NCBI RefSeq assembly: GCF_003018235.1
Contig: NZ_CP027437.1
Reading direction: 5' to 3' (one strand)
DNA length: 64,000 nucleotides
Source: Escherichia coli
GTDB taxonomy: Bacteria > Pseudomonadota > Gammaproteobacteria > Enterobacterales > Enterobacteriaceae
Numbering within the stretch: the first letter of the stretch is position 1; every line of letters begins with the position of its first letter. Shown piece by piece: positions 5,730 to 56,235 of this stretch. Under the pieces are notes generated by a model. That model worked only from the letters and a program-made list of their open reading frames with translations, had not been told where the DNA came from and did no database searches. The translations under genes and the position numbers were made by a program.

Positions 5730-7041
5730 ATGGCAGGGAAAGCGCATGGGAACGGCGATCGTCGGGGCGATAACACCATATGTGGATTGGGGGATCGTTT
5801 ACGTCGTCTGACCGCCGGTATTTGCCTGATAACACAAACTATTTTCCCTGTTATGGCTGCTGCCCCTACGCATATTAATCCTGCGCATTCGGATACTGCC
5901 GCGTCACTGATCCTGCCGAACGTTAAAACTATTCCATATACCCTGGGTGCGTTGGAATCGCCACCTACGGTCGCGGCACGCTTTGGTATCACCGTTGATG
6001 AATTACGTCGCCTGAATCAGTTCCGTACCTTTGCGCGGGGCTTTGACAATGTGCGTCAGGGCGATGAAATAGATGTGCCCCTCATTAACAGTAACAGCCC
6101 TGAAGCGCGCAACCTGAAAGCAATGCAGATGGAGCGCGATGGCAAAGATCCGCAAATGCAGGTCGCGGAAGTGGCGCAGCAAAGCGGAACACTTTTAGCG
6201 CGCGATATGGACAGCGAACAGGCTGCAAGTATGGCGCGTGGCTGGGTGGCTTCTTCTGCCTCTGCGCAGGCAACGGACTGGCTCAGTCGTTGGGGAACTG
6301 CCCGGGTATCTCTTGGTGTGGATGAAGATTTCAGCCTTAAAAGCTCGTCATTTGAATTTCTCCATCCCTGGTACGAAACGCCGGATAACCTGGTCTTCAG
6401 CCAGCACACACTTCACCGTACGGATGATCGCACTCAAACCAACCACGGTATCGGCTGGCGTTATTTCACATCGAGCTGGATGTCTGGCGTCAATATGTTT
6501 ATCGATCATGACCTGACCCGCTATCACACCCGAACCGGGATGGGCGTTGAATACTGGCGCGATTACCTGAAACTGAGTGGCAACGGTTATCTGCGCCTCA
6601 GTAACTGGCGTAGTGCACCGGAACTCGACAATGACTATGAAGCACGTCCGGCGAACGGTTGGGATCTTCGCGCCGAAGGCTGGTTACCGGCCTGGCCGCA
6701 GCTGGGCGGCAAGCTGGTCTATGAACAATATTATGGCGATGAAGTGGCGCTGTTTGGTAAAGACGGGCGACAAAATGATCCTCACGCGATTACCGCAGGT
6801 TTGAGTTACACCCCCGTTCCCCTGATCTCCTTTAGTGCCGAGCAACGGCAGGGCAAACAGGGAGAAAACGACACCCGAATTGGTATGGAGTTGACGTTGC
6901 AACCCGGCCATTCACTGCAAAAACAGCTCGATCCGGCTGAAGTTGCAGCACGACGTAGCCTTGTGGGCAGTCGCTATGACCTGGTCGATCGTAATAACAA
7001 TATTGTCCTCGAATATCGCAAGAAAGAGCTGGTGCGGCTGA
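5730..7041 (+). other. Signal peptide + LysM + inverse-autotransporter beta-barrel translocation unit of the adhesin
   Basis: Signal-like segment LTAGICLITQTIFPVMAAAP; LysM-like YTLGALESPPTVAARFGITVDELRRLNQF; barrel motifs shared with intimin. Confidence 0.7.
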
Positions 7042-9170
7042 CGCTGACCGATCCGTTGAAAGGCAAGCCGGGTGAGGTTAAATCGCTGGTTTCTTCCTTA
7101 CAAACCAAATATGCGCTGAAAGGTTATGACATTGAAGCCGCCTCCCTGCAATCAGCGGGCGGAAAAGTAGCTGTTTCCGGCAAGGATATTCAGGTCACTA
7201 TTCCTCCCTACCGATTCACGGCAATGCCTGAAACCGACAACACTTACCCGATAGCGGTTACAGCGGAAGATTCGAAAGGAAATTTCTCCCGGCGTGAAGA
7301 AAGTATGGTGGTCGTGGAAAAACCCACATTAAGCCTCGCCGATTCAACGCTTTCTGTCGATCTGCAAATCCTGCTTGCTGATGGAAAATCAACCTCAACG
7401 CTGACCTATACCGCGCGAGATTCCAGCGGCAAGCCGATCCCCGGTATGACGTTAAAAACACAGGCAAAAGGTTTGCAGGATTTCGCCTTAAGCGAATGGA
7501 AAGACAACGGTAACGGAACCTATACCCAAATAGTTACCGCCGGGAAGACGTCTGGCGCGTTATCGCTGATGCCGCAATTTAACGGCGACGATATCGCTAA
7601 GACGCCAGCGCTGATTGCTATCGTGGCGAATACAGCATCCCGCGCTGACTCCACGATTGAGACAGACCAGGATAATTACGTCGCGGGTAAGCCGATAGTC
7701 GTTAAAGTGACCCTGAGAGATGATAACGGCAACGGGGTTACCGGACGAAAAGAACTTCTCAAACAAACCGTTAAAGTTGACAACACGAAGGCTGATGCCG
7801 TTAGTGCCTGGACGGAAGAAAGTGAGGGAATTTACAAAGCAAGCTATACGGCCCATCTCATTGGCGACAAATTAACGGCCCAGCTGACGATGCCCGGCTG
7901 GCAAACCAAACATTCGGATGCGTTCAGTATTGCGGGTGATAAAGATACCGCCAAAATCGCTGCGATGCAGATCACCGCGAATAACGCAGTTGCCAGACGC
8001 GATCACAATACCGTCGCTGTGACGGTCAGGGATGTGCATCAAAATTTACTGCAGGGACAAAATGTTACCTTCACGGTCGTGAATGGTGCGGCGGTTTTTG
8101 CCGATCCAAATGGCGGTATTGTGACGACAGATAAAGACGGGATTGCCAGCGTTAACCTTGCCAGTGACCAGGCGGTAAACAGTCTTATCAAGGCCGAGAC
8201 CAATGGCAGTAGTCAGTCTGTGGAAGTGAGCTTTATTACTGGCGATATCTCTCAGCTGACTTCCACCATCAAGACAGACGATGTGTCATACACCGCGGGT
8301 GGTAAGATAAAAGTGTCAGTTACCCTTATGGATGAGCAGAAAAACCTGGTGAAAGGGATGGCTTCGCTGCTGGCGGGTAGCGGTGTGGTTGAGGTGAGCG
8401 GTACAGATAAAAATGAAACGGGTAACTGGAGCGAAGAGTCTGATGGCGTTTACACCACCACCCGAACCGCGAAGATTGCTGGCGATCGCCATTACGCCAC
8501 GCTGAAACTATCGACATGGAGTAGCGCGCAGCAATCTGATGCGTATGCCATACGCGAAAGCGGAGCTGTGCTGGCTTATTCCTCCATCGTTACCGACAAA
8601 ACGGCCTACACCGCGGGCGGCGCGATAAAAGTTACGGTAACACTCAAGGATAGCTATGAAAACCTGGTCGGGGGGCAGCGAGACGCTATCAACCAGGCTA
8701 TCCAGCTGCCAAATACAAAAGCGGAAAGCATCGCCTGGAATGAAGATCAAAAAGGAATTTATACCGCAACGTATACCGCCTTACTCCCTGGCACCGGTTT
8801 AAAAGCACAGCTACAGATGTCCGGCTGGGCGAACGCTCTGACTTCAAATGATTACAGTATTAGTGGCGATGCCGCCAGTGCACAAATTGTCGCGATGCAA
8901 GTGACAACGGGTAACCCGGATGTGCTGGCGAATGGCAGCGATCGACATACGGTGAATGTCCGGGTGGAAGATCAGTTTGGCAATGTGCTGCCGGAGCAGA
9001 CCGTCACCTTTACGGTGACGAAGGGGGCGGCTGTATTTGCCAATGCAGGGCAGAGCGCAGATATCAGGACGGATGCGCATGGCATGGCAGAGGTTGATCT
9101 GAGCAGTACCGTAGCGGATGCCAGCACTGTTGAGGCTAAGGTTAATCAAAGCAGCGATAGTAAAACGGTG

Positions 9171-12100
9171 AACTTTGTTGCTGATGTTAGCACGGCGCAG
9201 GTCGCGGAGCTGGTGGTCATTAAGGATGGTTCAGAGGCGGACGGTTCGACGGCGAACACGCTGCGGGTGAAGGTCACCGATGCGTTCGGTAATACGCTTG
9301 CCGGGCAGACGGTCAGCGTGTTGGCGGACAACAGCGCAACGACTGCCCCGACGGTAATCACAGAGCCGGACGGCACGGTGGAGATCAGTGTCACCAGCCA
9401 GACGGCGGGAGCCAGTACTGTCACTGCCAGCATCAACAGCAGCAGCCTGAGCCGGACCGTGACGTTTATCGCCGATGTCAGGACGGCGCAGATCGCGGAT
9501 CTGGTAGTCACCCGGGATAACTCAGTGGCAGACGGTGCAATGGCGAATATGCTGCGGGCGAGGGTCACCGATGCGTTCGGTAATGCGCTTGCCGGGCAGA
9601 CGGTCAGCGTGATGGCAGACAACGGTGCCACGACTGCTCCGACGGTAATCACAGAGCCGGACGGCACGGTGGAGATCAGTGTCACCAGCCAGACGGCGGG
9701 CAGCAGTGCGGTCACCGCCAGCATCAACAGCAGCAGCCAGAGCCGGAACGTGACGTTTGTCGCCGATGTCAGGACGGCGCAGATCGCGGACCTGGTGGTC
9801 ATTAAGGACGACTCAGTGGCAGACGGTGCAATGGCGAATATGCTGCGGGCGAGGGTCACCGATGCGTTCGGTAATGCGCTTGCCGGGCAGACGGTCAGCG
9901 TGTTGGCAGGCAACGGTGCCACGACTGCTCCGACGGTCACCACGCAGCCGGACGGCACGGTGGAGATCTCTGTCACCAGCCAGACGGCGGGCACCAGTGC
10001 GGTCACCGCCAGCATTAACAACAGCAGCCAGAGCCGGAACGTGACGTTTATCGCCGATGTCAGCACGGCGCAGATCGCGAGTCTGGAGGTGACGCAGGAT
10101 AACGCCGTGGCAGACGGTGCGACGGCGAACACGCTGCGGGTGAGGGTGACTGATGCATTCGGTAATGCGCTTGGCGGACAGACGGTCAGCGTGATGGCAG
10201 ACAACGGTGCAACGGTGTCTCCGACGGTCAGTACAGGGCCGGACGGCACGGTGGAAATCAGTGTCACCAGCCAGACGGCAGGCACCAGTGCGGTCACTGC
10301 CAGCATTAACAGCAGCACCCTGAGCCGGAACGTCACGTTTGTCGCGGATGTCAGGACGGCGCAGATCGCGGACCTGGTGGTCATTAAGGACGACTCAGTG
10401 GCAGACGGTGCAATGGCGAATACGTTGCGGGTGAGGGTGACCGATGCGTTCGGTAATGCGCTTGCCGGACAGACGGTCAGCGTGATGGCGGACAACGGTG
10501 CAGCGGTCGCTTCGACGGTCACCACAAAGCCGGACGGCACGGTGGAGATCAGTGTCACCAGCCAGACGGCAGGAATCAGTGTGGTCACCGCCAGCATCAA
10601 CAACAGCATCCAGAGTCAGAACGTGACGTTTGTCGCGGATGTCAGGACGGCGCAGATCGCTGATCTGGTGGTGACGCAGGACGGCTCAGTGGCAGACGGT
10701 TCGACGGCGAACATGCTGCGGGTGAGGGTGACGGATGCGTTCGGTAATGCGCTTGCCGGGCAGACGGTCAGCGTGATGGCAGGCAACGGCGCAACGGTGT
10801 CTCCGACGGTCACTACAGAGCCGGACGGCACGGTGGAGATCAGTGTCACCAGTCAGACGGCGGGCACCAGTGCCGTCACTGCAACCATCAACAGCAGCAG
10901 CCAGAGCCGGGATGTGACGTTTATCGCCGATGTCAGGACGGCGCAGATAGCGAGTCTGGAGGTGACGCAGGATAACTCAGTGGCTGACGGCGCAATGGCG
11001 AACACGCTGCGGGTGAAGGTCACCGATGCGTTCGGTAATGCGCTTGCCGGGCAGACGGTCAGCGTGACGGTAGGCAACGGCGCAACGGTCGCTCCGACTG
11101 CCATCACAGGGCCGGACGGTACGGTGGAGATCAGTGTCACCAGTCAGACGGCGGGCACCAGTGCCGTCACCGCAACCATCAACAGCAGCAGCCAGAGCCG
11201 GAACGTGACGTTTATCGCCGATGTCAGGACGGCGCAGATCGCGAGTCTGGAGGTGACGCAGGATAACGCCGTGGCAGACGGTTCGACGGCGAACACGCTG
11301 CGGGCGAGGGTCACGGATGCGTTCGGTAATACGCTTGCCGGGCAGACGGTCAGCGTGTTGGCGGACAACGGTGCCACGACTGCTCCGACGGTCACCACGC
11401 AGCCGGACGGCACGGTGGAGATCATTGTCACCAGTCAGACGGCGGGAGTCAGTTCTGTCACCGCCAGCATCAACAACAGCACCCTGAGCCGGAACGTGAC
11501 GTTTGTCGCCGATGTCAGGACGGCGAAGATAGCGGACCTGGTGGTTATTAAGGACGGCTCAGTGGCAGACGGCGCGACGGCGAATACGCTGCGGGTGAAG
11601 GTCACCGATGCTAACGGTAATACGCTTGCCGGGCAGACGGTCAGCGTGACGGCAGACAACAGTGCAATGGTCGCTCTGACGGTGATTACAGAGCCGGACG
11701 GCACAGTGGAGATCAGTGTCACCAGTCAGACGGCAGGCACCAGTACAGTCACTGCCAGCATCAACAGCAGCAGCCTGAGCCGGAACGTGACGTTTGTCGC
11801 CGATGTCAGCACGGCAAAAATAGCGGATCTGGTCGTTATCCAGGATAACTCAGTGGCTGACGGCGCAATGGCGAACACGCTGCGGATGAGGGTCACGGAT
11901 GCATTCGGTAATACGCTTGGCGGACAGACGGTCAGCGTGACGGCAGACAACAGTGCAATGGTCGCTTCGACTGTCATCACAGGGCCGGACGGTACGGTGG
12001 AGATCAGTGTCACCAGCCAGACGGCGGGGATCAGTACTGTCACTGCATCCATCAACAACAGCAGCCTGAGCCGGGACGTGACGTTTGTTGCCGATGTCAG

Positions 12101-32164: not shown

Positions 32165-33718
32165 ATGCAAATGATTACCTCGCGACAAAACAGATTATTA
32201 CGATTCCTTTTACCACGAAGGGAATATACGACTATTGTTACGATTGCCGGCTATTTAAATGTTTCGGAAAAAACCATTCAACGTGATTTACGTTTACTTG
32301 AGCAATGGCTGGAACAATGGCGAATAACCGTTGAGAAGCGTGCTGGCGCAGGTGTGATGTTAGACTCGAAGAATATTACTGATTTGCTGCATCTTGATCA
32401 TTTGTTGGGAGCAGAATGTGAAGAGATTGATGGTGTAATGAATAATGCCAGGCGCGTTAAAATAGCGTCGCAGTTATTAAGTGAAACACCGAATGAAACG
32501 TCGATCAGTAAATTGTCAGAGCGCTATTTTATCAGTGGAGCCTCTATTGTTAATGACCTGAGAGTGATTGAGTCCTGGCTTGCGCCGTTGGGGTTATCAT
32601 TGATCCGCAGCCCAAGTGGTACGCATATTGAAGGTAGTGAAGGGCAAGTCCGACAGGCAATGGCATTACTGATTAACGGCATTATTAACCATAATGAGCC
32701 GCAAGGTGTCGTGTATTCACGTCTGGATCCCGGAAGTTATAAAGCATTAGTCCATTATTTTGGAGAAGAAGAGGTGTTATTTGTCCAGTCATTGTTACTG
32801 GATATGGAAAATGAATTAAGTTGGTCTTTGGGAGAGCCTTATTACGTTAACATTTTTACTCACATCCTTATTATGATGTATCGCAACACGCACGGGAATG
32901 CGTTATCCAGAGAAGAAGATCAAACCAGGCAATATGATGAAAATATCTTTAATGTTGCCAGTCAGATGATTCATAAGATAGAACAACGAATTGCACATAC
33001 ATTGCCCGATGATGAAGTCTGGTTTATTTATCAATATATCATTTCATCAGGTGTGGCGATTGATGGACAAAAAGATGTTAGCATTATTTCACATATGCAG
33101 GCCAGCAATGAAGCGCGTCTGATTACCTGGCGTTTAATTACGGTATTCAGTGACATCGTGGACTGCGATTTTAGTGAAGACAGCGCATTATATGATGGCT
33201 TATTGGTGCATATTAAGCCGCTGATTAACCGACTAAATTATCGCATTCATATCCGTAATCCATTGCTGGAAGATATTAAAGCAGAATTAGCGGATGTCTG
33301 GCGGTTGACGCAATATGTGGTGAATCAGGTATTTAAAACCTGGGGTGAGAATGCAGTGAGCGAGGATGAAGTGGGTTACCTGACCGTTCATTTTCAGGCT
33401 GCGATGGAGCGGCAAATTGCCCGTAAACGCGTATTACTGGTCTGTTCAACCGGAATCGGAACTTCGCATCTACTGAAAAGCCGTATTCTGCGAGCGTTTC
33501 CTGAATGGACGATTGTTGATGTTATTTCAGCAGCGAATTTATCACAGGTTTTGCCTGACAATATCGAACTGATTATTTCGACCATTAATTTGCCTACAGT
33601 CACTATGCCGGTCGCTTATGTTACCGCTTTTTTTAATGATGCCGATATTAAGCGGGTCACTGAAATGGTGATTACGGAAAAATTACATCATGCGACATCT
33701 CGGGTCGTTGAAATTTAA
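32165..33718 (+). CDS. PRD-domain PTS-regulatory transcriptional activator (Mga/MtlR-like, HTH + PRDs + EIIB-like C-terminus), 517 aa; frz-operon-like regulator
   Basis: N-terminal HTH (TIAGYLNVSEKTIQRDLRLL), central PRD-like region, C-terminal EIIB-like motif LLVCSTGIGTSHLLK; first gene of a PTS operon. Confidence 0.7.
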   Translation: MQMITSRQNRLLRFLLPRREYTTIVTIAGYLNVSEKTIQRDLRLLEQWLEQWRITVEKRAGAGVMLDSKNITDLLHLDHLLGAECEEIDGVMNNARRVKIASQLLSETPNETSISKLSERYFISGASIVNDLRVIESWLAPLGLSLIRSPSGTHIEGSEGQVRQAMALLINGIINHNEPQGVVYSRLDPGSYKALVHYFGEEEVLFVQSLLLDMENELSWSLGEPYYVNIFTHILIMMYRNTHGNALSREEDQTRQYDENIFNVASQMIHKIEQRIAHTLPDDEVWFIYQYIISSGVAIDGQKDVSIISHMQASNEARLITWRLITVFSDIVDCDFSEDSALYDGLLVHIKPLINRLNYRIHIRNPLLEDIKAELADVWRLTQYVVNQVFKTWGENAVSEDEVGYLTVHFQAAMERQIARKRVLLVCSTGIGTSHLLKSRILRAFPEWTIVDVISAANLSQVLPDNIELIISTINLPTVTMPVAYVTAFFNDADIKRVTEMVITEKLHHATSRVVEI

Positions 33719-33744
33719 TGTCAGAATTTTATGAGGTATGACGA

Positions 33745-34215
33745 ATGGACATAACAAAAATCCTGAATACGAATCGCGTTATTTTAGATATGCAAGCGAC
33801 GAATAAAGCGGAGGCGATTGAAGAATTAACTAATCTTCTCAAAAAAGATGGTGCGATCGATTGTCGGGAAACCTTTATTAAAGATGTCTGGCAGCGCGAA
33901 GCGGAAGGCTCGACTGGTTTTGAAAATCATATTGCGATCCCGCATGGTAAATCTTCTGCGGTAATTAATACCACGCTGGCGATCGGGCGAACCCGGCAGG
34001 ATATTCCCTGGGAAACGCTGGATGGCAGTAGCGTGCGCTGTATTATTTTATTTGCGGTACGTCTTGAAGATCAAAATACCACCCATATCCGTTTACTTTC
34101 CCAGGTCGCGGGTGCGCTGGCGGATGATGACATCATAGAACAATTGCTGGTTGAGACGAGTCCGCAAAAAATCATTGATCTCTTTAGTCAGTATGCACAA
34201 TCCGATGTCTGCTAA
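33745..34215 (+). CDS. PTS EIIA component, fructose/mannitol (type 2) family, 156 aa
   Basis: Phosphorylation-site motif HIAIPHGK; size and profile of PTS_EIIA_2. Confidence 0.8.
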   Translation: MDITKILNTNRVILDMQATNKAEAIEELTNLLKKDGAIDCRETFIKDVWQREAEGSTGFENHIAIPHGKSSAVINTTLAIGRTRQDIPWETLDGSSVRCIILFAVRLEDQNTTHIRLLSQVAGALADDDIIEQLLVETSPQKIIDLFSQYAQSDVC

Positions 34216-34232
34216 ATAACAGGGAGTATGTC

Positions 34233-34547
34233 ATGAATATTGTCTGTGTTGCCGCCTGCACGGCGGGTATTGCTCACACCTATATTGCTCGTGAAAAGTT
34301 AATTAAAGGGGCAAAAGCACTGGGCCACACCATTAAAGTTGAAACCCAGGGAACCATTGGTACAGAAAACGAATTACAGGCGGCAGAGATCTCTGCTGCT
34401 GACGTCGTGATTCTTGCTGTGGATGTGAAAATAAAAGGAGAAGAACGTTTTACCAATAAACGCATTGTGCGAGTAAAGACAGAGATCGTCATTAAATCGC
34501 CCGTTCAATTTCTTGAAAAGGTCGAAAAATCACTGGGAAATAAATGA
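34233..34547 (+). CDS. PTS EIIB component, fructose-like (type 2) family, 104 aa
   Basis: N-terminal active-site Cys motif VCVAACTAGIAHTYIA; SD-like ggag upstream. Confidence 0.8.
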   Translation: MNIVCVAACTAGIAHTYIAREKLIKGAKALGHTIKVETQGTIGTENELQAAEISAADVVILAVDVKIKGEERFTNKRIVRVKTEIVIKSPVQFLEKVEKSLGNK

Positions 34548-34571
34548 TCCTTATACTGGAGGGATCTTAAT

Positions 34572-35663
34572 ATGAAAGAAAATAAAATTCCGGTTTCACA
34601 GGAAATTAAAAAACATTTATTAACCGGCATCTCGTGGATGATACCCCTTATTGTGGCCGCCGGGATATGTATTGCGTTGGGGCAAGTTCTTGGCGGTACA
34701 GATGTTGGTGAAAAAACAGGAACAATCCCGTGGATGCTTAATCAGATTGGCGGCTGGGGAATGGGGCTGATTGTGCCGCTGATTAGCGCGGCAATTGCCT
34801 ATTCTATTGCTGATCGTCCCGGTTTTGCCCCGGGCCTGATTGTCGGCTTTCTCTGTGGGCAAATCCATACCGGATTTATTGGCGGTATGTTGGGTGGTTT
34901 CCTGGTGGGCTACACCATTTTGCTACTTAAACGCTATATCCGCCTGCCGCAGTCGATGCAAGGACTCATGCCAATCATGGTGTTACCGGTATTGAGCACC
35001 ATTATCGGTGGGCTGTTAATGATGACGCTGATTGGTAAACCCATCGCCTGGTTACAAGAAGCACTGACTCATTTGCTCGAGTCGATGCAGGGCGGATCGC
35101 GCTTCCTGATGGGGGCCATACTTGGCGCGATGGCAACCTTCGATTTCGGTGGTCCGGTCAACAAAACCATGTCGCTGTTTTCCGATGGCTTGCTGGTCAG
35201 TGGCGTCTACGGACCAGAAGCCGTGAAATTTGTCGGCTCAATCATCCCTCCGTTTGGCATCACACTTTCGTTCTTACTGACACGCCATAAATACACCCGT
35301 GCGGAGCGCGAGGCGCTGAAAGCCGCGTTTCCGATGGGGATCTGCATGATCACTGAAGGAGTCATTCCGATCGCCGCGCGTGACCTGCTGCGAGTAGTGG
35401 GATCTTGTGTGGTGGCATCGGCGGTCGCGGGCGGCTTAATCATGGTGTGGGGCGTGGAGAGTCCGGTTCCGCATGGCGGCATGTTTGTTGTGCCTCTGTT
35501 CACCCATCCTCTGCTGTTTTGCCTGGCGCTGGGTATAGGCACGGTGATTTGTGGCGTGATGCTTTCACTCTGGAAGAAACCGGTAACGGAACGCGACGAA
35601 GAGTTTGACGAACTGAGCGATCAAAAGCTGAAAGATGAAGAGATCACTTTCACCCTCGAATAA
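34572..35663 (+). CDS. PTS EIIC permease, fructose-like family, 363 aa
   Basis: Polytopic membrane protein following EIIA/EIIB genes; FrwC-like profile. Confidence 0.8.
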   Translation: MKENKIPVSQEIKKHLLTGISWMIPLIVAAGICIALGQVLGGTDVGEKTGTIPWMLNQIGGWGMGLIVPLISAAIAYSIADRPGFAPGLIVGFLCGQIHTGFIGGMLGGFLVGYTILLLKRYIRLPQSMQGLMPIMVLPVLSTIIGGLLMMTLIGKPIAWLQEALTHLLESMQGGSRFLMGAILGAMATFDFGGPVNKTMSLFSDGLLVSGVYGPEAVKFVGSIIPPFGITLSFLLTRHKYTRAEREALKAAFPMGICMITEGVIPIAARDLLRVVGSCVVASAVAGGLIMVWGVESPVPHGGMFVVPLFTHPLLFCLALGIGTVICGVMLSLWKKPVTERDEEFDELSDQKLKDEEITFTLE

Positions 35664-35674
35664 CCGGAGGCCCT

Positions 35675-36526
35675 ATGTTTGCCGATATGAAAAGTATGGT
35701 GATGAAAGCCTGGCATGAACATTACGCCTTGCTGGCGATCAACTGTATGAATCTGGAAAGTGCTCACGCAGCTATCCGCGTGGCGGAGAAGAATCGCGCT
35801 CCGATCATTCTCAATCTCTATCAGGGGCATCTGGCGCATTTTCCTGCACCCGTCGCGGCGGCAGTGGTTAAAACGCTCGCGGAATCTGCCTCAGTACCGG
35901 TCGCTCTGGCGCTTGATCATGGCAAAAATCCGGACTGTATTCGTCAGGCGTTTCGTGCTGGTTTCAGCGGATTAATGATTGATGCTTCTGCTTTTCCCCT
36001 GGAGGAAAACGTGCGCCAGACCAGGGCGGTGGTGGAACTCGCCGCCAGCGCGCAGCTCTGCGTGGAAGGCGAACTGGGCCATCTGGCAGATGCGCCGCGT
36101 TACGACCAGGCCGCCAATGCAGACCTGATGACGCAACCCACTGATGTGGAACCGTTTATCGCGCAGACAGGCATTGATCTACTGGCCGTCTCGGTAGGCA
36201 CGGCGCACGGCATGTACGCGCCTGGTGTTGTACCTGCTATTGATTTTCAGCGTCTGGCGGAGATTTTCCACTGCTCGAGCGTGCCTCTGGCATTACATGG
36301 CGGTAGCGGTACGCCGTTCGATCAGCTCCAGCTCTGTACGACGCTGGGGGTAGCAAAAATCAACGTGGGGGCGGCCATTTTTGAACGGGGGAAATCCGCG
36401 CTCCTGCATACCCTCTGTCACGATATATCCATTGAACTGGTGGACGCGCTGAAAGCTATGGAACTGGCCTTCGAAGAAGCGATTACACCGTATTTACAGG
36501 CGAGCGGCTCTATAGGCAAAGCCTGA
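35675..36526 (+). CDS. Class II ketose-bisphosphate aldolase paralogue 1 (FBA/TBA family), 283 aa
   Basis: Motifs ALDHG, VGTAHGMY, ALHGGSG corresponding to the class II aldolase metal-binding histidines; strong SD ggagg 4 nt upstream. Confidence 0.75.
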   Translation: MFADMKSMVMKAWHEHYALLAINCMNLESAHAAIRVAEKNRAPIILNLYQGHLAHFPAPVAAAVVKTLAESASVPVALALDHGKNPDCIRQAFRAGFSGLMIDASAFPLEENVRQTRAVVELAASAQLCVEGELGHLADAPRYDQAANADLMTQPTDVEPFIAQTGIDLLAVSVGTAHGMYAPGVVPAIDFQRLAEIFHCSSVPLALHGGSGTPFDQLQLCTTLGVAKINVGAAIFERGKSALLHTLCHDISIELVDALKAMELAFEEAITPYLQASGSIGKA

Positions 36527-36606
36527 TTCATTTTCTGTCATGGCCTTTATGCCAGTGCAATAACGCACCGGCAGGGCGGACTACACGCTGAAACTGGAGA
36601 TTTAAC

Positions 36607-37467
36607 ATGTTAGTTTCGATGAAAGAATTACTGCAACCTACCCGCCAGCACGGCTTTGCCATTGGCGCATTTAATGTGGCGGATAACTGTTTCCTTCGCG
36701 CAGTCGTGGATGAAGCAGAAGCGACAAATACTCCGGCGATTATTGCCATCCATCCCAGCGAACATGATTTTGTGGGCGATGCCTTTTTCGCTCACGTTCG
36801 CGAAATTACCCAGCGTAGTCCGGTCCCGTTTGTACTGCACCTCGATCATGGTGCCTCTGTAGAGCATGTTTTGCGTGCGATTCGCTGCGGATTTACCTCA
36901 GTAATGATCGACGGTTCGCTGCTGCCGTATGAAGAAAACGTGGCGCTGACCGCAGAAGTGGTTCGCCTCGCTCACGCGGTTGGAGTGTCGGTTGAGGGTG
37001 AACTGGGAACCATCGGACAAACAGGAACGTCGGTAGAAGGTGGTGTTTCACAAGTGACCTACACAGATCCGGCGCAGGCCGCCGATTTTATTGCTCGTAC
37101 AGGTGCCGACACTCTGGCTGTGGCGATTGGTACAGCGCATGGCATCTATCCAAAAGGGATGCAGCCGAAGCTGCAAATGGACATTTTGCGCGACATTGCC
37201 GGACGTATTGATATTCCGCTGGTGCTACACGGTGGTTCGGCAAACCCGGACGCGGAGATTGCTGAATCAGTTACGCTCGGCGTCGGCAAAATCAATATCT
37301 CCAGCGATATGAAATACGCCTATTTCCAGAAAGTGCGTGAAATTCTCGCTAAAGAGAGCTGGTGGGACCCGAACGTCATCTATCCGGATGCGATTAACGC
37401 GGCGCGGGAAGTCATTCGCCACAAAATGAAACTGTTCGGTTCGCTCGGTAAAGCATCACTGTACTAA
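36607..37467 (+). CDS. Class II ketose-bisphosphate aldolase paralogue 2 (FBA/TBA family), 286 aa
   Basis: Canonical HLDHG, IGTAHGIY, VLHGGS motifs; resembles GatY/KbaY-type aldolases. Confidence 0.8.
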   Translation: MLVSMKELLQPTRQHGFAIGAFNVADNCFLRAVVDEAEATNTPAIIAIHPSEHDFVGDAFFAHVREITQRSPVPFVLHLDHGASVEHVLRAIRCGFTSVMIDGSLLPYEENVALTAEVVRLAHAVGVSVEGELGTIGQTGTSVEGGVSQVTYTDPAQAADFIARTGADTLAVAIGTAHGIYPKGMQPKLQMDILRDIAGRIDIPLVLHGGSANPDAEIAESVTLGVGKINISSDMKYAYFQKVREILAKESWWDPNVIYPDAINAAREVIRHKMKLFGSLGKASLY

Positions 37468-37475
37468 GCCAGAAG

Positions 37476-37495
37476 GGCGGGGTGACCCGCCTTTT
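37476..37495 (+). terminator. Intra-operon hairpin + short U-tract between aldolase 2 and kinase (candidate attenuator/partial terminator)
   Basis: GGCGGG-gtga-CCCGCC followed by tttta, in the 47-nt gap before the kinase ATG. Confidence 0.4.
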
Positions 37496-37514
37496 ACGCA
37501 ACAAGGAACGAGAT

Positions 37515-38447
37515 ATGCACTATCTGGGGTTGGATATTGGTGGGACCAAAATCGCCGCCGTCGTCATGGATGCGCATGGCTGGGAGATTCGCCGTTACCG
37601 CTGCCCGACGCAAAAGTCGACATATCAACAATTTGTCTCATGCGTTGTGGCGTTTATCGAGCAGATTAGGCGGGACGTTCAACGACCGATGCTGACAGGG
37701 ATCGCCTTACCCGGCAGTATCTCGCCACTCACTGGCCTGATTAAAAACGCGAATATTCAGGTGATTAACGGTCATGCGTTACAGGCTGATTTGCAGCAAT
37801 TGCTTGGGCAACCGGTGGTGATAGCCAATGATGGTAACTGTTTCGCGCTATCAGAAGCTTGCGACGGTGCCGGGCAAGATTATGACGTGGTATTTGGTAT
37901 TACGCTTGGTACGGGCTGCGGCGGTGGCATTGCCATCAAGCAACGACCGTTTATAGGGGCCTGGGGAAATGCTGCCGAATGCGGTCATATCACGTTGCCA
38001 AGCTATACGGAGCAGGAAGATGGTCCATCAGTCAGTTGCTATTGCGGCAAACACAACTGCGTGGAGTCGTTTGTTTCCGGCAGCGGTTTTAGTGAACGCT
38101 ATCAACAGATGACTGCTAACTTGCTCACTCCTGCGGCGATTGTCACCCTGGCACAACGTGGTGATGCTTGTGCCATGCAGCAGGTGGCACGTTTTCGCCA
38201 ACAGCTTGCCCGCACGCTGGCAACCATCGTTAACGTTGTTGACCCTGGCGTGATTGTGATTGGCGGCGGGCTTTCGAATGTGGAACTGCTTATCACCGAT
38301 CTGAACGCAGAAGTCGCTCCACTGGTTTTCACCGACCAATTCACCACCCCCATTGTAAAAGCGCAGCACGGCGACAGTAGCGGAATGCGTGGCGCTGCCT
38401 GGCTTGCTATGCGCAACGGAGAAGCCAATGAAACGTTCACAAATTAA
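37515..38447 (+). CDS. ROK-family sugar kinase (NagK-like), 310 aa
   Basis: N-terminal ATP-binding motif LGLDIGGTKIA and ROK zinc motif CGHITLP...CYCGKHNC; start chosen at ATG 37515 (the ORF-track start 37482 is a GTG inside the hairpin). Confidence 0.75.
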   Translation: MHYLGLDIGGTKIAAVVMDAHGWEIRRYRCPTQKSTYQQFVSCVVAFIEQIRRDVQRPMLTGIALPGSISPLTGLIKNANIQVINGHALQADLQQLLGQPVVIANDGNCFALSEACDGAGQDYDVVFGITLGTGCGGGIAIKQRPFIGAWGNAAECGHITLPSYTEQEDGPSVSCYCGKHNCVESFVSGSGFSERYQQMTANLLTPAAIVTLAQRGDACAMQQVARFRQQLARTLATIVNVVDPGVIVIGGGLSNVELLITDLNAEVAPLVFTDQFTTPIVKAQHGDSSGMRGAAWLAMRNGEANETFTN

Positions 38448-39108
38448 TTATGTTATTGATAAAGCACATGCCATTGCGCAGACCTTCCGCGTTTGTTTGC
38501 CAGAGTTCGCCTATTTTACGGTGGATGACTGGCTGCAGCGGGAACGGGATAACTGGCAAGAAGTGGTCGACTTACAGCTCGGTTGGGATATCACCGATTT
38601 TGGTCGTGGTGATTTCAACCAAACGGGACTAACACTGCTAACGATGCGCAACGGCGCGCTGGGGGCGGCGGCATATCCAAAACCGTATGCTGAGAAAATG
38701 TTGCAGATCCAACAAGATCAGCAGACTCCCTGGCATTTTCACACCCACAAAATGGAAGATATCCTCAATCGGGGCGGTGGAGACTTATGCATGCAGTTGG
38801 CCTGGGCCAACGAAGCCAATCTCTGTGATGATCAACGAGTCATTACCGTGAGTGTTGATGGTCAGCGGCGTACCATGAAACCTGGTGAAACGCTGGTGCT
38901 AAAGCCGGGGCAGGGCATTTGCCTGCCGCCGCGTCTGTATCATCGCTTCTGGGCGGAAAAAGCGTTTGTTCTCGGCTGGGAAATTTCGATGGTAAATGAT
39001 GACCAACACGATAACTATTTTCTTGAGCCGGGAGGACGTTTTCCGGCGATAGAAGAAGATGAACCGGTGAAATGGTTATTGTGCAGTGAGTATGGAATTT
39101 TGCGCTAA
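38428..39108 (+). CDS. Cupin-superfamily sugar isomerase (D-lyxose/D-mannose isomerase-like), 226 aa
   Basis: Start MKRSQINYV overlapping kinase 3' end by 20 nt; cupin-like motif region TPWHFHTHKMEDILNRGGG; family call from recalled similarity, not searched. Confidence 0.6.
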   Translation: MKRSQINYVIDKAHAIAQTFRVCLPEFAYFTVDDWLQRERDNWQEVVDLQLGWDITDFGRGDFNQTGLTLLTMRNGALGAAAYPKPYAEKMLQIQQDQQTPWHFHTHKMEDILNRGGGDLCMQLAWANEANLCDDQRVITVSVDGQRRTMKPGETLVLKPGQGICLPPRLYHRFWAEKAFVLGWEISMVNDDQHDNYFLEPGGRFPAIEEDEPVKWLLCSEYGILR

Positions 39109-39114
39109 TAACGG

Positions 39115-39153
39115 GGAACGCTAGCGCTGATATCCGCTAGCGTCCTTATTTTT
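39115..39153. terminator. Bidirectional terminator between frz-like operon and yicH
   Basis: Stem ggaacgctagcg / cgctagcgtcc with 8-nt loop followed by ttattttta. Confidence 0.65.
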
Positions 39154-40861
39154 ACTGCACCGGCTCCGTCGACGTAACTTCACCACTGGAAACTACGCCC
39201 GCATTCATGGTTTGAGTCACTTGCTGCTTTGCGGCATTCACGGCATGCAATTGCCCGCTAACCGTAGGTTTCAGCGGGACATTGGCCTGAATATCGCCAC
39301 TGGCAGTAAGCTGAATATTGCCGTCGCCAGTCAACGGTAATTCAGGCCATCCCCACTGTTGCAAAATATTCACCGGCACACCGCGTCCATTCAGGCTGAT
39401 ATGGGTCTGACGTTGTGGCGTTTGTGAAACACTGGCGGTGGCTTCCAGAATGCCTTTTTCAGTAAATGCACTCAGTTCGCTGATATTCACCGTGCTGCTG
39501 TTGGCGGTCAGCGCCAGCGATGGGCGACGAACATCAACACGATTGAATGTCGCGGCGGCGGCATTCAGATTCGCCGAACCACTCCAGACGCCCCATTTAT
39601 GATCGGTAACCAGCGTCAGGTTGGTACCGTAACCATCGAGCGCGGTGAGCTGCCACGGGAAGTCAGGGTCGATATCAATGATCAGATTGCGGCTGGCGCT
39701 AAATCTCTTCAGTTGCAGGCTGTTTAACCAACCGGGTGTCGTTTCCATCCACAACTGTTGCCAGTTTTTTGGCAAGGTATATTCCAGTCCGGCAATTGCC
39801 GCATCATCAAGGAGCAACGTTTTCCCGTTGCGCAGCCAGTTCCCGGACGTTCTGACCATGCCCCCTTCCCAGCGGCTGGTGAACTGGCGCAGCGCTACGC
39901 CCTGCGGGGAAAATTCCGCGTTTATAATCGGGTCAAATAAATGCAGCGAACCATAAATGAACTCGCTGGCGTTCATCGACAGTTTGCCTTCCTGTGTCTG
40001 CCAGTCATCTTTACTGAAGGTCATGTTGCGCAAGCTGAGATCGAGGTCGGTCACCGCCCAGTCCGGACCTTGCAGGCGAGCGTCGATGACTTCCAGGCGA
40101 CCGATCTGCAACGACGGGACAGAGCGTAATGGCGCAAAGAAGTCAGTTAGCGATTTTTCGCTTTGTAGACGGATATCCGCCAGCCGCAGATTTTCCACTT
40201 GCCAGCTGCCGTCGGCGTTACGCTGCGCGTTTCCGGTTAATGTCCCGCGGGCGATGTCGGCACCCAGGTTAGTCAGCGTAACGCGATCGTTATCAATACT
40301 GCCTTCAATCAGTACATTGGTGGCAGGAACATCATTGAGAGAAAGCGATCCGGCACTAAACTGAATCTGCGCCTTCGTACCCAGCACTTTACCGGCTTCT
40401 GGTGACCACGGAACCACGCCACCATTTACCCGCTGCGCGCTCAGTTTCCATTCGCTATTCGGGCTATTAAACGCCATATCACGCAGTTGCAGACGATCGG
40501 CTTTGAACGGTAGCGGCGCGGTCTGGTCGGTGAGATTCAGCGTCCCGTTTTCCAGCAGGATGGTATCGACATGGCGTGGTTCGGTCAGTTGCCGACTGCT
40601 TAGCGCAATGTCGACACTTTTTGCCACCAGGGTCGCGGGCTGGCCATCACGGCCGAACGTGACGTTCTCCAGCACGATATGAGATGGCGCGGAAAAACGG
40701 TGATCCATCGCCCCGAAGGCCAGATGATAGTCGCTATTCTCGGAAACCCATGCGCTGATATGTTCTGCTCCCCAGCGGGTTTGCAGAAGAAAATAGAGGC
40801 CAGCGATCACCACTAACAGAGCGATGAAAATGTAGAGAAGCAGCTTCCCAATAAATTTCAT
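39152..40861 (-). CDS. yicH: AsmA-family outer-membrane assembly protein, 569 aa
   Basis: Conserved start MKFIGKLLLYIFIALLVVIAG within ORF 39152-40885. Confidence 0.85.
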   Translation of the reverse strand: MKFIGKLLLYIFIALLVVIAGLYFLLQTRWGAEHISAWVSENSDYHLAFGAMDHRFSAPSHIVLENVTFGRDGQPATLVAKSVDIALSSRQLTEPRHVDTILLENGTLNLTDQTAPLPFKADRLQLRDMAFNSPNSEWKLSAQRVNGGVVPWSPEAGKVLGTKAQIQFSAGSLSLNDVPATNVLIEGSIDNDRVTLTNLGADIARGTLTGNAQRNADGSWQVENLRLADIRLQSEKSLTDFFAPLRSVPSLQIGRLEVIDARLQGPDWAVTDLDLSLRNMTFSKDDWQTQEGKLSMNASEFIYGSLHLFDPIINAEFSPQGVALRQFTSRWEGGMVRTSGNWLRNGKTLLLDDAAIAGLEYTLPKNWQQLWMETTPGWLNSLQLKRFSASRNLIIDIDPDFPWQLTALDGYGTNLTLVTDHKWGVWSGSANLNAAAATFNRVDVRRPSLALTANSSTVNISELSAFTEKGILEATASVSQTPQRQTHISLNGRGVPVNILQQWGWPELPLTGDGNIQLTASGDIQANVPLKPTVSGQLHAVNAAKQQVTQTMNAGVVSSGEVTSTEPVQ

Positions 40862-55453: not shown

Positions 55454-56170
55454 ATGCGTCCAGCAGGCCGTAGCAATAATCAGGTGCGTCCCGTTACCCT
55501 GACTCGTAACTATACAAAACATGCAGAAGGCTCGGTGCTGGTCGAATTTGGCGATACCAAAGTGTTGTGTACCGCCTCTATTGAAGAAGGCGTGCCGCGC
55601 TTCCTGAAAGGTCAGGGCCAGGGCTGGATCACCGCAGAGTACGGCATGCTGCCACGCTCTACCCACACCCGTAACGCGCGTGAAGCGGCGAAAGGTAAGC
55701 AGGGTGGACGCACCATGGAAATCCAGCGTCTGATCGCCCGTGCTCTTCGCGCGGCAGTAGATTTGAAAGCGCTGGGTGAGTTCACCATTACGCTGGACTG
55801 CGACGTGCTTCAGGCTGATGGTGGCACTCGTACCGCGTCGATTACAGGTGCCTGCGTGGCGCTGGCAGATGCGCTACAGAAGCTGGTGGAAAACGGTAAG
55901 CTGAAAACCAATCCGATGAAAGGGATGGTAGCCGCGGTTTCTGTCGGGATTGTGAACGGCGAAGCGGTTTGCGATCTGGAATACGTTGAAGACTCTGCCG
56001 CAGAGACCGACATGAACGTAGTGATGACCGAAGACGGGCGCATCATTGAAGTGCAGGGGACGGCAGAAGGCGAACCGTTTACCCACGAAGAATTACTCAC
56101 CTTGTTGGCTCTGGCCCGAGGGGGAATCGAATCCATTGTAGCGACGCAGAAGGCGGCGCTGGCAAACTGA
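55454..56170 (+). CDS. rph: Ribonuclease PH, full length 238 aa
   Basis: [37 protein letters not shown] through ...[10 protein letters not shown]; intact C-terminus. Confidence 0.95.
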
Positions 56171-56175
56171 TTTTT

Positions 56176-56203
56176 AAGGCGACTGATGAGTCGCCTTTTT
56201 TTT
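56176..56203 (+). terminator. rph-pyrE intercistronic attenuator/terminator
   Basis: Hairpin GGCGACT-gatg-AGTCGCC followed by 8 T residues, immediately upstream of pyrE; corresponds to the classical UTP-sensitive pyrE attenuator. Confidence 0.8.
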
Positions 56204-56235
56204 GTCTGTAGAAAAGTAAGATGAGGAGCGAAGGC

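What the first reader, a model, noticed from the sequence alone, without database searches (positions are those of the whole stretch)
37468..37514. Terminator-like hairpin inside the frz-like operon
A GC-rich 6-bp stem with 4-nt loop followed by UUUUA lies in the 47-nt gap between aldolase 2 and the kinase. It may partially terminate transcription, so that the kinase and isomerase are expressed at a lower level than the PTS and aldolase genes, or it may stabilise the upstream mRNA.
Basis: seen in the sequence. Interest (0 to 1): 0.3.

Follow-up and report, generated by a model that had tools for sequence, protein, structure and literature searches.

The report
Conserved hairpin inside the frz operon
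A small, very stable RNA hairpin sits just after the second aldolase gene of the E. coli frz sugar operon and is kept almost unchanged across several bacterial genera, so it probably lowers expression of the downstream kinase and isomerase genes; this is a well-known kind of operon fine-tuning, not a new mechanism.

Summary
In the 47-nt gap 37468-37514 there is a stem GGCGGG/CCCGCC (37476-37481/37486-37491), a loop GUGA and then UUUUA. It folds with probability about 1.0 and gives z = -3.0 on the + strand only.

With my own terminator score it ranks 2nd of 285 candidates in the 64-kb window, just behind the rph-pyrE attenuator, which is also in the window. The locus is the ExPEC frz operon, present in 1605 of 5426 complete E. 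coli genomes.

The stem is under strong purifying selection. It is identical in Escherichia, Citrobacter, Klebsiella aerogenes, Izhakiella and metagenomic relatives, while synonymous sites in the adjacent aldolase gene are 52-59% diverged. The loop changes freely but mostly between GNRA and UNCG tetraloops. One relative has a C-to-U change that keeps pairing only in + strand RNA.

The U-rich tail exists only in the Escherichia/Citrobacter clade. The genes after the hairpin (ROK kinase, cupin isomerase) are gained, lost or decayed repeatedly.

Best reading: a conserved intercistronic RNA hairpin marks and protects the 3' edge of the core transcript. In E. coli it is also a weak, leaky intrinsic terminator, probably damped by the ribosome stopping 7-8 nt upstream.

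It is a new member of a known kind. No expression data could be obtained.

The parts
36607..37467 (+). aldolase 2 (class II ketose-bisphosphate aldolase), the last gene of the conserved core of the frz operon; stop TAA at 37465-37467
   Evidence: ORF list, Pfam PF01116, RefSeq annotation of the 99.6% identical locus
37472..37475 (+). 5' extension of the stem (GAAG), pairing with the U-run through two A-U and two G.U pairs; variable between species
   Evidence: MFE structure; these extension pairs show double changes across species
37476..37481 (+). 5' arm of the core stem, GGCGGG
   Evidence: invariant in all reliable alleles
37482..37485 (+). tetraloop GUGA (GNRA class); this is where E. coli alleles vary (AUGA, GCAA, GCGA)
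   Evidence: loops in other taxa are GAGA, GUAA, GAAA, UUCG, UACG and UUUG
37486..37491 (+). 3' arm of the core stem, CCCGCC
   Evidence: the only reliable change is C to U (G-C to G.U) in ENA/Logan contigs L140 and L142
37492..37496 (+). short U-run UUUUA; a U-rich tail (UYUUU) is kept only in Escherichia, Citrobacter and a related MAG clade
37503..37508 (+). Shine-Dalgarno AAGGAA of the ROK kinase, 6 nt before the ATG, unpaired in the predicted fold
   Evidence: conserved in alignment A1
37515..38447 (+). ROK-family sugar kinase, the first accessory gene, reachable only by read-through of the hairpin
   Evidence: no promoter-like site nearby on the + strand
38428..39108 (+). cupin D-lyxose/D-mannose-type isomerase, the second accessory gene, overlapping the ROK 3' end by 20 nt
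39118..39143 (+). terminal terminator of the operon (9-bp stem, then CCTTATTTTT); not sequence-conserved in Citrobacter

Best explanation
The element is a conserved intercistronic RNA hairpin on the + strand transcript. It sits 7-8 nt after the aldolase-2 stop codon, at the boundary between the stable core of the frz operon (regulator, PTS IIA/IIB/IIC, two aldolases) and an evolutionarily labile accessory module (ROK kinase, cupin isomerase). Shown: the hairpin is real, very stable and strand-specific. Its stem is under strong purifying selection and its loop is held to hyperstable tetraloop classes. The downstream genes have no promoter of their own. Inferred: the hairpin defines and protects a 3' end for the core transcript. 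It would block 3'-to-5' exonucleases after downstream cleavage, as in the malE-malF and puf models. In Escherichia and Citrobacter, where a short U-run follows it, it would also release a fraction of RNA polymerases as a weak intrinsic terminator. Either route gives less kinase and isomerase mRNA than PTS and aldolase mRNA. Termination is expected to be inefficient and dependent on how closely ribosomes follow the polymerase, because a ribosome at the stop codon covers the first bases of the 5' arm.
For: Structure: -20.5 kcal/mol, z = -3.0 on the + strand against -0.7 on the - strand; core pair probabilities 1.0. Terminator-like quality: rank 2 of 285 in the window. The top six include the rph-pyrE attenuator (rank 1) and hairpins lying just after the ends of long ORFs, at 16296 and 52491. 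Selection: 12 of 12 stem columns are invariant against 10 of 36 other spacer columns, Fisher p = 9e-6. Four-fold sites of aldolase 2 differ by 52-59% between E. coli and Citrobacter/MAG, and only 29 of 141 are invariant in all four, so 12 neutral sites would all stay invariant with P about 6e-9. E. coli population: 1394 of 1605 genomes have an identical junction; the four variant genomes sampled change the loop (two also change bases 3' of the U-run), never the stem. RNA level: loops are GUGA, GCGA, GAGA, GCAA, GUAA and GAAA (GNRA), UUCG and UACG (UNCG), plus UUUG and AUGA. The core change C to U in L140/L142 and the G.U pairs of the extension pair only in + strand RNA. 83.5% of cells are paired against at most 62.5% when partners are slid, and 4 extension pairs show double changes. 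Boundary role: after the hairpin come ROK+cupin (E. coli, Citrobacter FP75, K. aerogenes), ROK alone (Gibbsiella, L135), cupin alone (C. werkmanii, Buttiauxella) or a ROK remnant plus cupin (Izhakiella). The operon ends after aldolase 2 in Pectobacterium, Brenneria, Acerihabitans, Sodalis and Erwinia. In the Escherichia/Citrobacter/MAG clade the 3' T-run is conserved while its 5' pairing partner is not, so the T-run is kept for its own sake. Known mechanisms of this kind are reviewed in PMC5927463.
Against: No transcript 3'-end, coverage or half-life data for this locus could be found, and the original frz paper is not held. The U-run is only 4 nt and fails the tool's terminator rule. The U-run is absent from five hairpin-bearing lineages, so termination cannot be the conserved function. 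With the stop codon 7-8 nt upstream, published constructs show termination efficiency below about 10% while the upstream gene is translated (PMC4824070). The core stem shows no compensatory changes, so the support there is invariance rather than covariation. No RNase E site was identified downstream that would feed a decay-barrier mechanism.
Confidence: 0.5

Rival explanations
1. Ribosome-gated attenuator. The hairpin plus U-run is a conditional terminator. It fires only when aldolase-2 translation lags behind RNA polymerase, which ties kinase and isomerase expression to transcription-translation coupling, as at the rph-pyrE attenuator.
For: The stop codon lies 7-8 nt before the core stem, and 4 nt before the extended stem. 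The rph stop lies 5 nt before the pyrE attenuator hairpin in this same window, with the same layout of stop, A-rich run, GC stem, 4-nt loop, U-run, SD and ATG. In the spacers printed the hairpin starts a few to about 12 nt after the stop codon in the other hairpin-bearing lineages. Experiments show that stop-codon proximity represses a terminator and that uncoupling translation restores it (PMC4824070).
Against: There are only 4 U here against 8 or more at pyrE. There is no upstream U-rich pause region. Most lineages have no U-run at all. Many ordinary terminators also lie close to stop codons, including the operon's own at 9 nt, so proximity alone does not show design.
Confidence: 0.15
2. The hairpin serves the downstream gene. 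It would be a 5' protective structure after RNase E cleavage, as in papBA, or an insulator that keeps the ribosome-binding site of the next gene free. The U-run would then be an S1-binding translation enhancer.
For: The hairpin always lies 4-19 nt upstream of the SD of whichever gene follows, whether ROK or cupin. It was retained together with the SD when ROK was precisely deleted in C. werkmanii. The SD is unpaired in all folds. The papBA-type model is established (PMC5927463).
Against: Only 4-8 nt separate the stop codon from the stem and they contain no RN|WUU-like RNase E motif, as read directly from the sequence. Terminal hairpins occur at the same place in lineages with no downstream gene. 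Acerihabitans has GGGCGGGC...GCCCGCCC 6 nt after the stop, which points to an upstream-directed role.
Confidence: 0.15
3. The hairpin is an evolutionary relic. It was the former operon-end terminator of a core operon that later acquired ROK and cupin downstream, and it now has no function.
For: Related operons in Pectobacteriaceae, Sodalis and Erwinia end after aldolase 2 with a hairpin. The Acerihabitans hairpin shares both arms with the E. coli one.
Against: Neutral sites nearby are saturated, yet the stem is identical in five genera (P about 6e-9). The loop is held to GNRA/UNCG classes. The true terminal terminator of the same operon is not sequence-conserved between E. coli and Citrobacter.
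Confidence: 0.05
4. The element acts at the DNA level. The 6-4-6 inverted repeat would be an operator for a DNA-binding regulator, or the target of a PRD-type RNA antiterminator.
For: The stem is conserved in sequence, not merely in structure. The first gene of the operon is annotated as a 'BglG family transcription antiterminator'.
Against: FrzR has HTH_11, Mga, PRD and PTS_IIB domains and no CAT RNA-binding domain. There is no room for a RAT element between the stop codon and the stem. The G.U pairs, the strand asymmetry of folding and the GNRA/UNCG loop bias have no meaning for a DNA operator. The position at the distal end of the operon is atypical for an operator.
Confidence: 0.04
5. The hairpin is an efficient terminator, and ROK and cupin are transcribed from a separate internal promoter.
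For: The hairpin/U-tail score is high, rank 2 in the window.
Against: There is no promoter-like site on the + strand between 32874 and 38738. Only 23 nt lie between the hairpin and the ROK ATG. A promoter inside aldolase 2 would still have to read through the hairpin. There are only 4 U.
Confidence: 0.02

Closest known systems
Intercistronic mRNA decay barriers (malE-malF REP hairpins of E. coli; puf operon stem-loop of Rhodobacter capsulatus), as summarised by Dar and Sorek 2018 (PMC5927463)
   Same: A stable stem-loop lies directly 3' of the gene or genes to be kept abundant. It sits inside a polycistronic transcript, needs no U-tract and is conserved in evolution. The predicted outcome is upstream mRNA exceeding downstream mRNA.
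   Different: It is not a REP element: it is single-copy, has no Rfam match and has a much shorter 6-10 bp stem. Differential decay has not been measured here. Most protective structures found by Dar and Sorek lie inside the downstream coding region, whereas this one is in the spacer.
Leaky intra-operon intrinsic terminators (the rplL-rpoB attenuator and the rpsU-dnaG terminator of E. coli, cited from my own knowledge; internal terminators of clostridial ABC-transporter operons, PMC9045158, seen)
   Same: A GC-rich hairpin followed by U residues lies between two cistrons, and the downstream genes depend on read-through.
   Different: The U-run is only 4 nt and is missing in most orthologous hairpins. 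Termination has not been demonstrated.
rph-pyrE attenuator (present in this window at 56176-56203)
   Same: It has the same layout: upstream stop codon, about 5-8 nt, A-rich run, GC stem, 4-nt loop, U-run, SD and ATG of the next gene.
   Different: pyrE has an 8-10 U tract and UTP-sensitive coupling; frz has 4 U and no known signal. This is a resemblance in how it may work, not family membership.
papBA-type 5' protective hairpin after RNase E cleavage (PMC5927463)
   Same: An intercistronic hairpin lies close upstream of the ribosome-binding site of the next gene, in a pathogenic E. coli operon.
   Different: No cleavage motif fits in the 4-8 nt before the stem. Related hairpins exist where no downstream gene follows.

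Membership tests
Canonical intrinsic (Rho-independent) terminator | GC-rich stem of about 5-14 bp with a short loop on the sense strand, just downstream of a gene | tested here: met
   There is a 6-bp all-GC core (7-10 bp with the extension) and a 4-nt loop, 8 nt after the stop codon. It ranks first in the window for stem energy per nucleotide.
Canonical intrinsic (Rho-independent) terminator | U-tract of about 7-9 nt, rich in U, immediately 3' of the stem | tested here: not met
   The tail is UUUUACGC, with 4 U in 8. The tail score of 3.5-4.1 is at the low end of the candidates.
Canonical intrinsic (Rho-independent) terminator | The hairpin and the U-tract are conserved together in orthologous positions | tested here: inconclusive
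   A UYUUU tail is kept in the Escherichia/Citrobacter/MAG clade. It is absent in K. aerogenes, Izhakiella, Buttiauxella, Gibbsiella, L135 and L140 although the hairpin is kept.
Canonical intrinsic (Rho-independent) terminator | Transcript 3' ends form at the U-tract in vivo or in vitro | not testable with these tools
   No Term-seq or RNA-seq data for frz-carrying strains were found.
Intercistronic mRNA decay barrier (malE-malF / puf type) | A stable stem-loop in the spacer directly 3' of the stabilised cistron | tested here: met
Intercistronic mRNA decay barrier (malE-malF / puf type) | The structure is conserved independently of a U-tract | tested here: met
   The stem is identical in five genera, with related hairpins in three more lineages. 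Loops are restricted to GNRA/UNCG classes.
Intercistronic mRNA decay barrier (malE-malF / puf type) | The upstream segment has a longer half-life than the downstream segment, and this depends on the hairpin | not testable with these tools
   This needs a rifampicin chase with and without hairpin mutations.
REP/BIME repeated extragenic palindromes | A multi-copy family with a REP consensus | tested here: not met
   There is a single match in the window even with 3 mismatches allowed. Each frz-carrying E. coli genome has one place only. Rfam gives nothing.
Translation-coupled attenuator (pyrE / pyrBI type) | The terminator hairpin starts within about 10 nt of the stop codon of a translated upstream ORF | tested here: met
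   There are 7-8 nt to the core stem and 4 nt to the extended stem, compared with 5 nt for rph-pyrE in the same window.
Translation-coupled attenuator (pyrE / pyrBI type) | A long U-tract and U-rich pause region that make read-through sensitive to UTP | tested here: not met
   There are 4 U only, and no U-rich run in the last 100 nt of aldolase 2.
PRD antiterminator / RAT-terminator switch (BglG, LicT, SacY) | The regulator has a CAT RNA-binding domain, and a RAT sequence overlaps the 5' arm of the terminator | tested here: not met
   FrzR has HTH_11, Mga, two PRD stretches and PTS_IIB, with no CAT domain. Only 7-8 nt of non-coding sequence precede the stem.
Any Rfam family | A match to a curated covariance model | tested here: not met
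   cmscan of 31000-40000 at E up to 10 gave four weak chance hits, none at 37468-37514.

The most novel reading that the evidence does not exclude
The hairpin may be more than a passive barrier. Its stem is frozen in sequence across at least five genera, while the operon's own terminal terminator turns over. Its loop alternates between GNRA and UNCG tetraloops. Aldolase 2 is bracketed by this hairpin and by a second conserved structure in the aldolase 1-aldolase 2 spacer. Together these could form a dedicated processing and stabilisation system that excises a long-lived aldolase-2 mRNA segment. Alternatively, the hairpin could be a ribosome-gated switch that couples expression of the swappable accessory genes to translation of the core genes.
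Probability: 0.12. Interest if true: 0.45.

Novelty: new member of a known kind. Interest (0 to 1): 0.28.

Why it matters
The frz operon is an ExPEC-associated fitness locus whose substrate and internal regulation are still unknown. Knowing that a strongly selected RNA hairpin separates a conserved core (transport plus aldolases) from a labile accessory branch (kinase plus isomerase) predicts unequal expression of the two parts. It also explains how the accessory genes can be swapped or lost without touching the core. It gives a compact natural test case, in which a hairpin occurs with a U-run in some genera and without one in others, for separating termination from mRNA stabilisation. It does not change any general concept.

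Tried and rejected
- **Rfam scan of the operon:** nothing was found at the site.
- **Repeat or REP element:** the hairpin is single-copy in the window and in each E. coli genome.
- **Minus-strand terminator:** folding is not better than shuffles (z = -0.7), the tail is CUUCUGGC, and no gene on that strand needs it.
- **Alternative kinase start at GTG 37482, the ORF listed:** this GTG is the hairpin loop and is lost in loop alleles GCAA and UUCG. RefSeq and all orthologs use the ATG at 37515, which has an SD.
- **Internal promoter for the kinase:** none is predicted and there is no room for one.
- **Antiterminator alternative structure:** core pair probabilities stay at 1.0 with up to about 200 nt of flanking sequence on each side, so no competing fold appears.
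- **FrzR as an RNA-binding antiterminator:** it has no CAT domain.
- **Covariation in the core stem:** none can be shown because the core is invariant. Only the extension pairs covary.
- **Literature:** the original frz paper (Rouquet et al. 2009) is not held. No Term-seq data exist for frz-carrying strains in the library. Other papers that mention frz say nothing about its transcripts.
- **Mangrovibacter:** the spacer is 233 nt with three different hairpins and is not alignable with the E. coli spacer, so I left it out of the alignments.

Full report
**1. What is there**

The window is an E. coli chromosome segment carrying the frz operon of extraintestinal pathogenic strains, inserted between yicI and yicH.
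- A 1.9-kb query around the site matches 1605 of 5426 complete E. coli genomes at 95-100% identity, always on the chromosome.
- RefSeq annotation of a 99.6% identical locus lists a PRD-containing regulator, PTS IIA, IIB and IIC, two class II aldolases, a ROK-family protein and a D-lyxose/D-mannose-type isomerase.
- Pfam confirms these assignments.
- This is the locus called frz in the literature (PMC12928451). Its description as eight genes including a ROK kinase and a cupin protein is from my own memory of Rouquet et al. 2009, which is not held in the library.

**2.

- Aldolase 2 ends with TAA at 37465-37467. The kinase starts at ATG 37515, preceded by AAGGAA at 37503-37508.
- In the 47-nt gap, GGCGGG (37476-37481) pairs with CCCGCC (37486-37491) around the loop GUGA, followed by UUUUA.
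- The MFE fold extends the stem to ten pairs by using the U-run: -20.5 kcal/mol, z = -3.0, with 1 of 200 shuffles as good.
- The opposite strand is unremarkable, z = -0.7.
- The six core pairs have probability 1.0 in contexts up to 393 nt, so no competing structure exists.
- The built-in terminator scan misses the site because it requires 5 T in 8.
- I scored every hairpin-plus-T-rich-tail candidate on both strands of the window, using my own implementation of a score in the style of d'Aubenton-Carafa and Kingsford, with the formula taken from memory. The site ranks 2nd of 285 overall and 1st for stem energy per nucleotide.
- Rank 1 is the rph-pyrE attenuator at 56176-56203, which happens to lie in this window. 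Ranks 3 and 4 lie just after the ends of long ORFs. The frz operon's own terminal terminator is rank 9. The score therefore places the site alongside bona fide terminators.

**3. The hairpin is under selection**

*Within E. coli.* 1394 of 1605 genomes have an identical 59-nt junction, 206 differ at 1-2 positions and 5 at 3-4. Four variant genomes were sampled. All four carry loop changes (GUGA to AUGA in two, GUGA to GCAA in two), and one of the GCAA genomes also has two changes 3' of the U-run. None touches the stem.

*Across taxa, first round.* A scan of species-representative genomes with the aldolase-2 protein, and a metagenome scan anchored only on the 3' coding end of aldolase 2 and therefore blind to the hairpin, gave 14 reliable distinct spacer alleles from Escherichia, Citrobacter and a related MAG clade.
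- All 12 stem columns are invariant, against 10 of 36 other spacer columns (Fisher p = 9e-6).
- Four-fold degenerate sites of aldolase 2 differ by 52-59% between E. coli and these relatives, and only 29 of 141 are invariant in all four genomes. The chance that 12 neutral sites all stay invariant is about 6e-9.
- Three further singleton alleles come from single contigs, at least two of them of very low coverage. One has a stem mismatch. I did not count them.

*Across taxa, second round.* More distant orthologs were obtained through a protein search and contig look-ups. Their spacers are printed.

| Lineage | Hairpin | Following bases |
|---|---|---|
| K. aerogenes | GAAGGCGGG-UACG-CCCGCCUUC | CAAUCGG |
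| Izhakiella | AGGCGGG-GUAA-CCCGCCU | GCUGG |
| ENA/Logan contigs L140, L142 | GGCGGGGCGGG-GAAA-CCUGCCUCGCU | AUGAAUA |
| Buttiauxella | GGGGCGG-CUUUGU-CCGCCUC | AAAUCG |
| Logan contig L135 | GGGCGG-CUUUGU-CCGCCC | ACUGU |
| Gibbsiella | AGGGCAGGC-AGGCUC-GCCUGCCCU | CCACAGG |

- On a 16-sequence structural alignment, 83.5% of cells are paired against at most 62.5% when partners are slid.
- Four extension pairs show changes on both sides. The core is invariant except for one G-C to G.U change.
- The covariation score is 0.189 against 0.145 for shuffles, reached by 12 of 500 shuffles.
- Support for the core therefore rests on invariance, and support for the extension on modest covariation.

*Three features point to an RNA-level role on the + strand.*
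- The fold is strand-asymmetric.
- The G.U pairs, including the core C-to-U change in L140/L142, would be A.C mismatches on the other strand.
- Of ten distinct tetraloops, six are GNRA (GUGA, GCGA, GAGA, GCAA, GUAA, GAAA) and two are UNCG (UUCG, UACG). These classes make up about 5% of random tetraloops. The alleles are related by descent, so this is not a formal probability.

*Contrast with the operon end.* The terminal terminator of the same operon is not conserved in sequence between E. coli (CGCTAGCG...) and Citrobacter (GCCCGGT...), although both abut yicH.

**4. What the hairpin separates**

The core (regulator, IIA, IIB, IIC, aldolase 1, aldolase 2) is collinear from Firmicutes to Enterobacterales. 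What follows aldolase 2 is labile.

| Genes after aldolase 2 | Lineages |
|---|---|
| ROK + cupin | E. coli, Citrobacter sp. FP75, K. aerogenes |
| ROK + a 30-codon cupin remnant | MAG L002 |
| ROK only | Gibbsiella, L135 |
| Cupin only | Buttiauxella; C. werkmanii and two metagenomic groups, where ROK is precisely deleted but the hairpin and the SD are kept |
| ROK remnant + cupin | Izhakiella |
| Split ROK + cupin | L142 |
| Nothing | Pectobacterium, Brenneria, Acerihabitans, Sodalis, Erwinia persicina, one JGI contig |

- Where the operon ends at aldolase 2, a hairpin still follows the stop codon.
- The Acerihabitans hairpin (GGGCGGGC-GUCGAUU-GCCCGCCC, 6 nt after the stop) shares both arms with the E. 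coli hairpin. This suggests the element is old and belongs to the 3' end of the core.

**5. Terminator or stabiliser**

*The U-rich tail.* It is confined to the Escherichia/Citrobacter/MAG clade (UUUUA, UCUUUC, UUUUUC) and absent from the other hairpin-bearing lineages. The function shared by all lineages therefore cannot be canonical intrinsic termination. It fits the established class of intercistronic hairpins that block 3'-to-5' exonucleases and stabilise the upstream segment: malE-malF, puf and the genome-wide cases in PMC5927463.

*Within the Escherichia/Citrobacter clade.* The T-run is conserved while the bases that could pair with it are not (AGAAG, AUGCA, AUUGA and GUGCU). So it is kept for its own sake. 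This is consistent with a weak terminator, or alternatively with a U-rich translation enhancer.

*Expected strength in E. coli.* Termination should be inefficient for two reasons.
- The U-run has only four residues.
- The stop codon lies 7-8 nt before the stem. In E. coli reporter constructs, the tR2 terminator was almost fully repressed at such distances (below 10% at 5 bp, about 12% at 17 bp in one series), and it regained about 90% efficiency when translation was uncoupled (PMC4824070).

*Read-through is required.* The kinase and isomerase have no promoter of their own. There is no predicted site on the + strand between 32874 and 38738, and only 23 nt separate the hairpin from the ATG. They remain intact genes in the E. 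coli records examined, so read-through must be the rule.

**6. Conclusion and rivals**

*Conclusion.* I conclude that this is a conserved intercistronic RNA hairpin that marks and protects the 3' edge of the core frz transcript. In E. coli it also acts as a leaky intrinsic terminator. The net effect is lower kinase and isomerase mRNA than PTS and aldolase mRNA (confidence about 0.5 for this combined mechanism; about 0.85 that the hairpin is a functional RNA element at all).

*Rivals.*
- A ribosome-gated attenuator of the pyrE type: 0.15.
- A role for the downstream gene, as a 5' protection or RBS insulator: 0.15.
- A functionless relic: 0.05, contradicted by the conservation.
- A DNA operator or PRD antiterminator target: 0.04. 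FrzR lacks a CAT domain.
- A strong terminator with a separate promoter: 0.02.

**7. Novelty**

Internal partial terminators and protective intercistronic hairpins are textbook devices. This instance appears undescribed in the accessible literature, so it is a new member of a known kind. Three points lift it slightly above routine:
- the unusual sequence-level conservation of the stem compared with the operon's terminal terminator;
- the alternation of the loop between GNRA and UNCG classes;
- its position at a boundary where genes are repeatedly swapped.

No transcript data were available, so the functional claims remain inferences.

Noticed in passing
window 36527-36606: The spacer between aldolase 1 and aldolase 2 is about 80 nt and keeps a length of 78-95 nt in all Enterobacterales orthologs. 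It holds a second conserved structure, TGCC-(about 16 variable nt)-GGCAGGGC, followed by the conserved CTACACCCTGAAACTGGAGAAT. The consensus has 9 pairs and no double changes. Aldolase 2 is therefore bracketed by two conserved hairpins, which might define a stable mRNA segment.
   Followed up: partly
window 56168-56238: The classical rph-pyrE intercistronic attenuator is present: hairpin at 56176-56197, U-run to 56203, and an intact rph stop at 56168-56170 only 5 nt before the hairpin. It is the top-scoring terminator-like site in the window and a built-in comparator for the frz hairpin.
   Followed up: partly
window 39118-39143; L004 8505-8553; L003 7586-7630: The terminal terminator of the frz operon has a different stem sequence in Citrobacter, although the flanking genes (cupin, yicH) are the same. 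The internal hairpin stem, by contrast, is identical in five genera.
   Followed up: yes
L003 6862-6912; L131 4362-4888; L142 2384-3249; L002 7824-7913: The accessory genes decay repeatedly. ROK is precisely deleted in C. werkmanii with the hairpin and SD kept. Izhakiella has a ROK remnant, one Logan contig has a ROK split into two ORFs, and one MAG has a cupin remnant.
   Followed up: partly
L127 and L128, equivalent to window 37482-37484: A common E. coli allele changes the loop GTGA to ATGA. This creates an in-frame ATG 11 codons upstream of the kinase start, inside the hairpin and without an SD. It is probably not used.
   Followed up: no
L005 6862-7094: Mangrovibacter has a 233-nt spacer between aldolase 2 and ROK with three hairpins. 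One is a perfect bidirectional terminator (AAAAAGAAGGAAAAA...TTTTTCCTTCTTTTT). Another, GUGGCGUGC-UGAU-GCACGCCGC followed by UUUU, lies 19 nt before the ROK ATG.
   Followed up: partly
window 5730-16280: There is a 2428-aa inverse autotransporter (IAT_beta domain plus 16 Big_1 repeats). It is followed 40 nt later by a 1074-aa ORF made of Big_1/invasin repeats with no beta domain.
   Followed up: no
window 27773-27867 (-): tRNA-Sec (selC) lies about 4 kb upstream of the frz operon.
   Followed up: no
L056 6474-6956: In Marinilactibacillus a short 160-aa cupin follows aldolase 2 after only 18 nt. An isomerase partner of this operon may therefore be ancient, in a different form.
   Followed up: no
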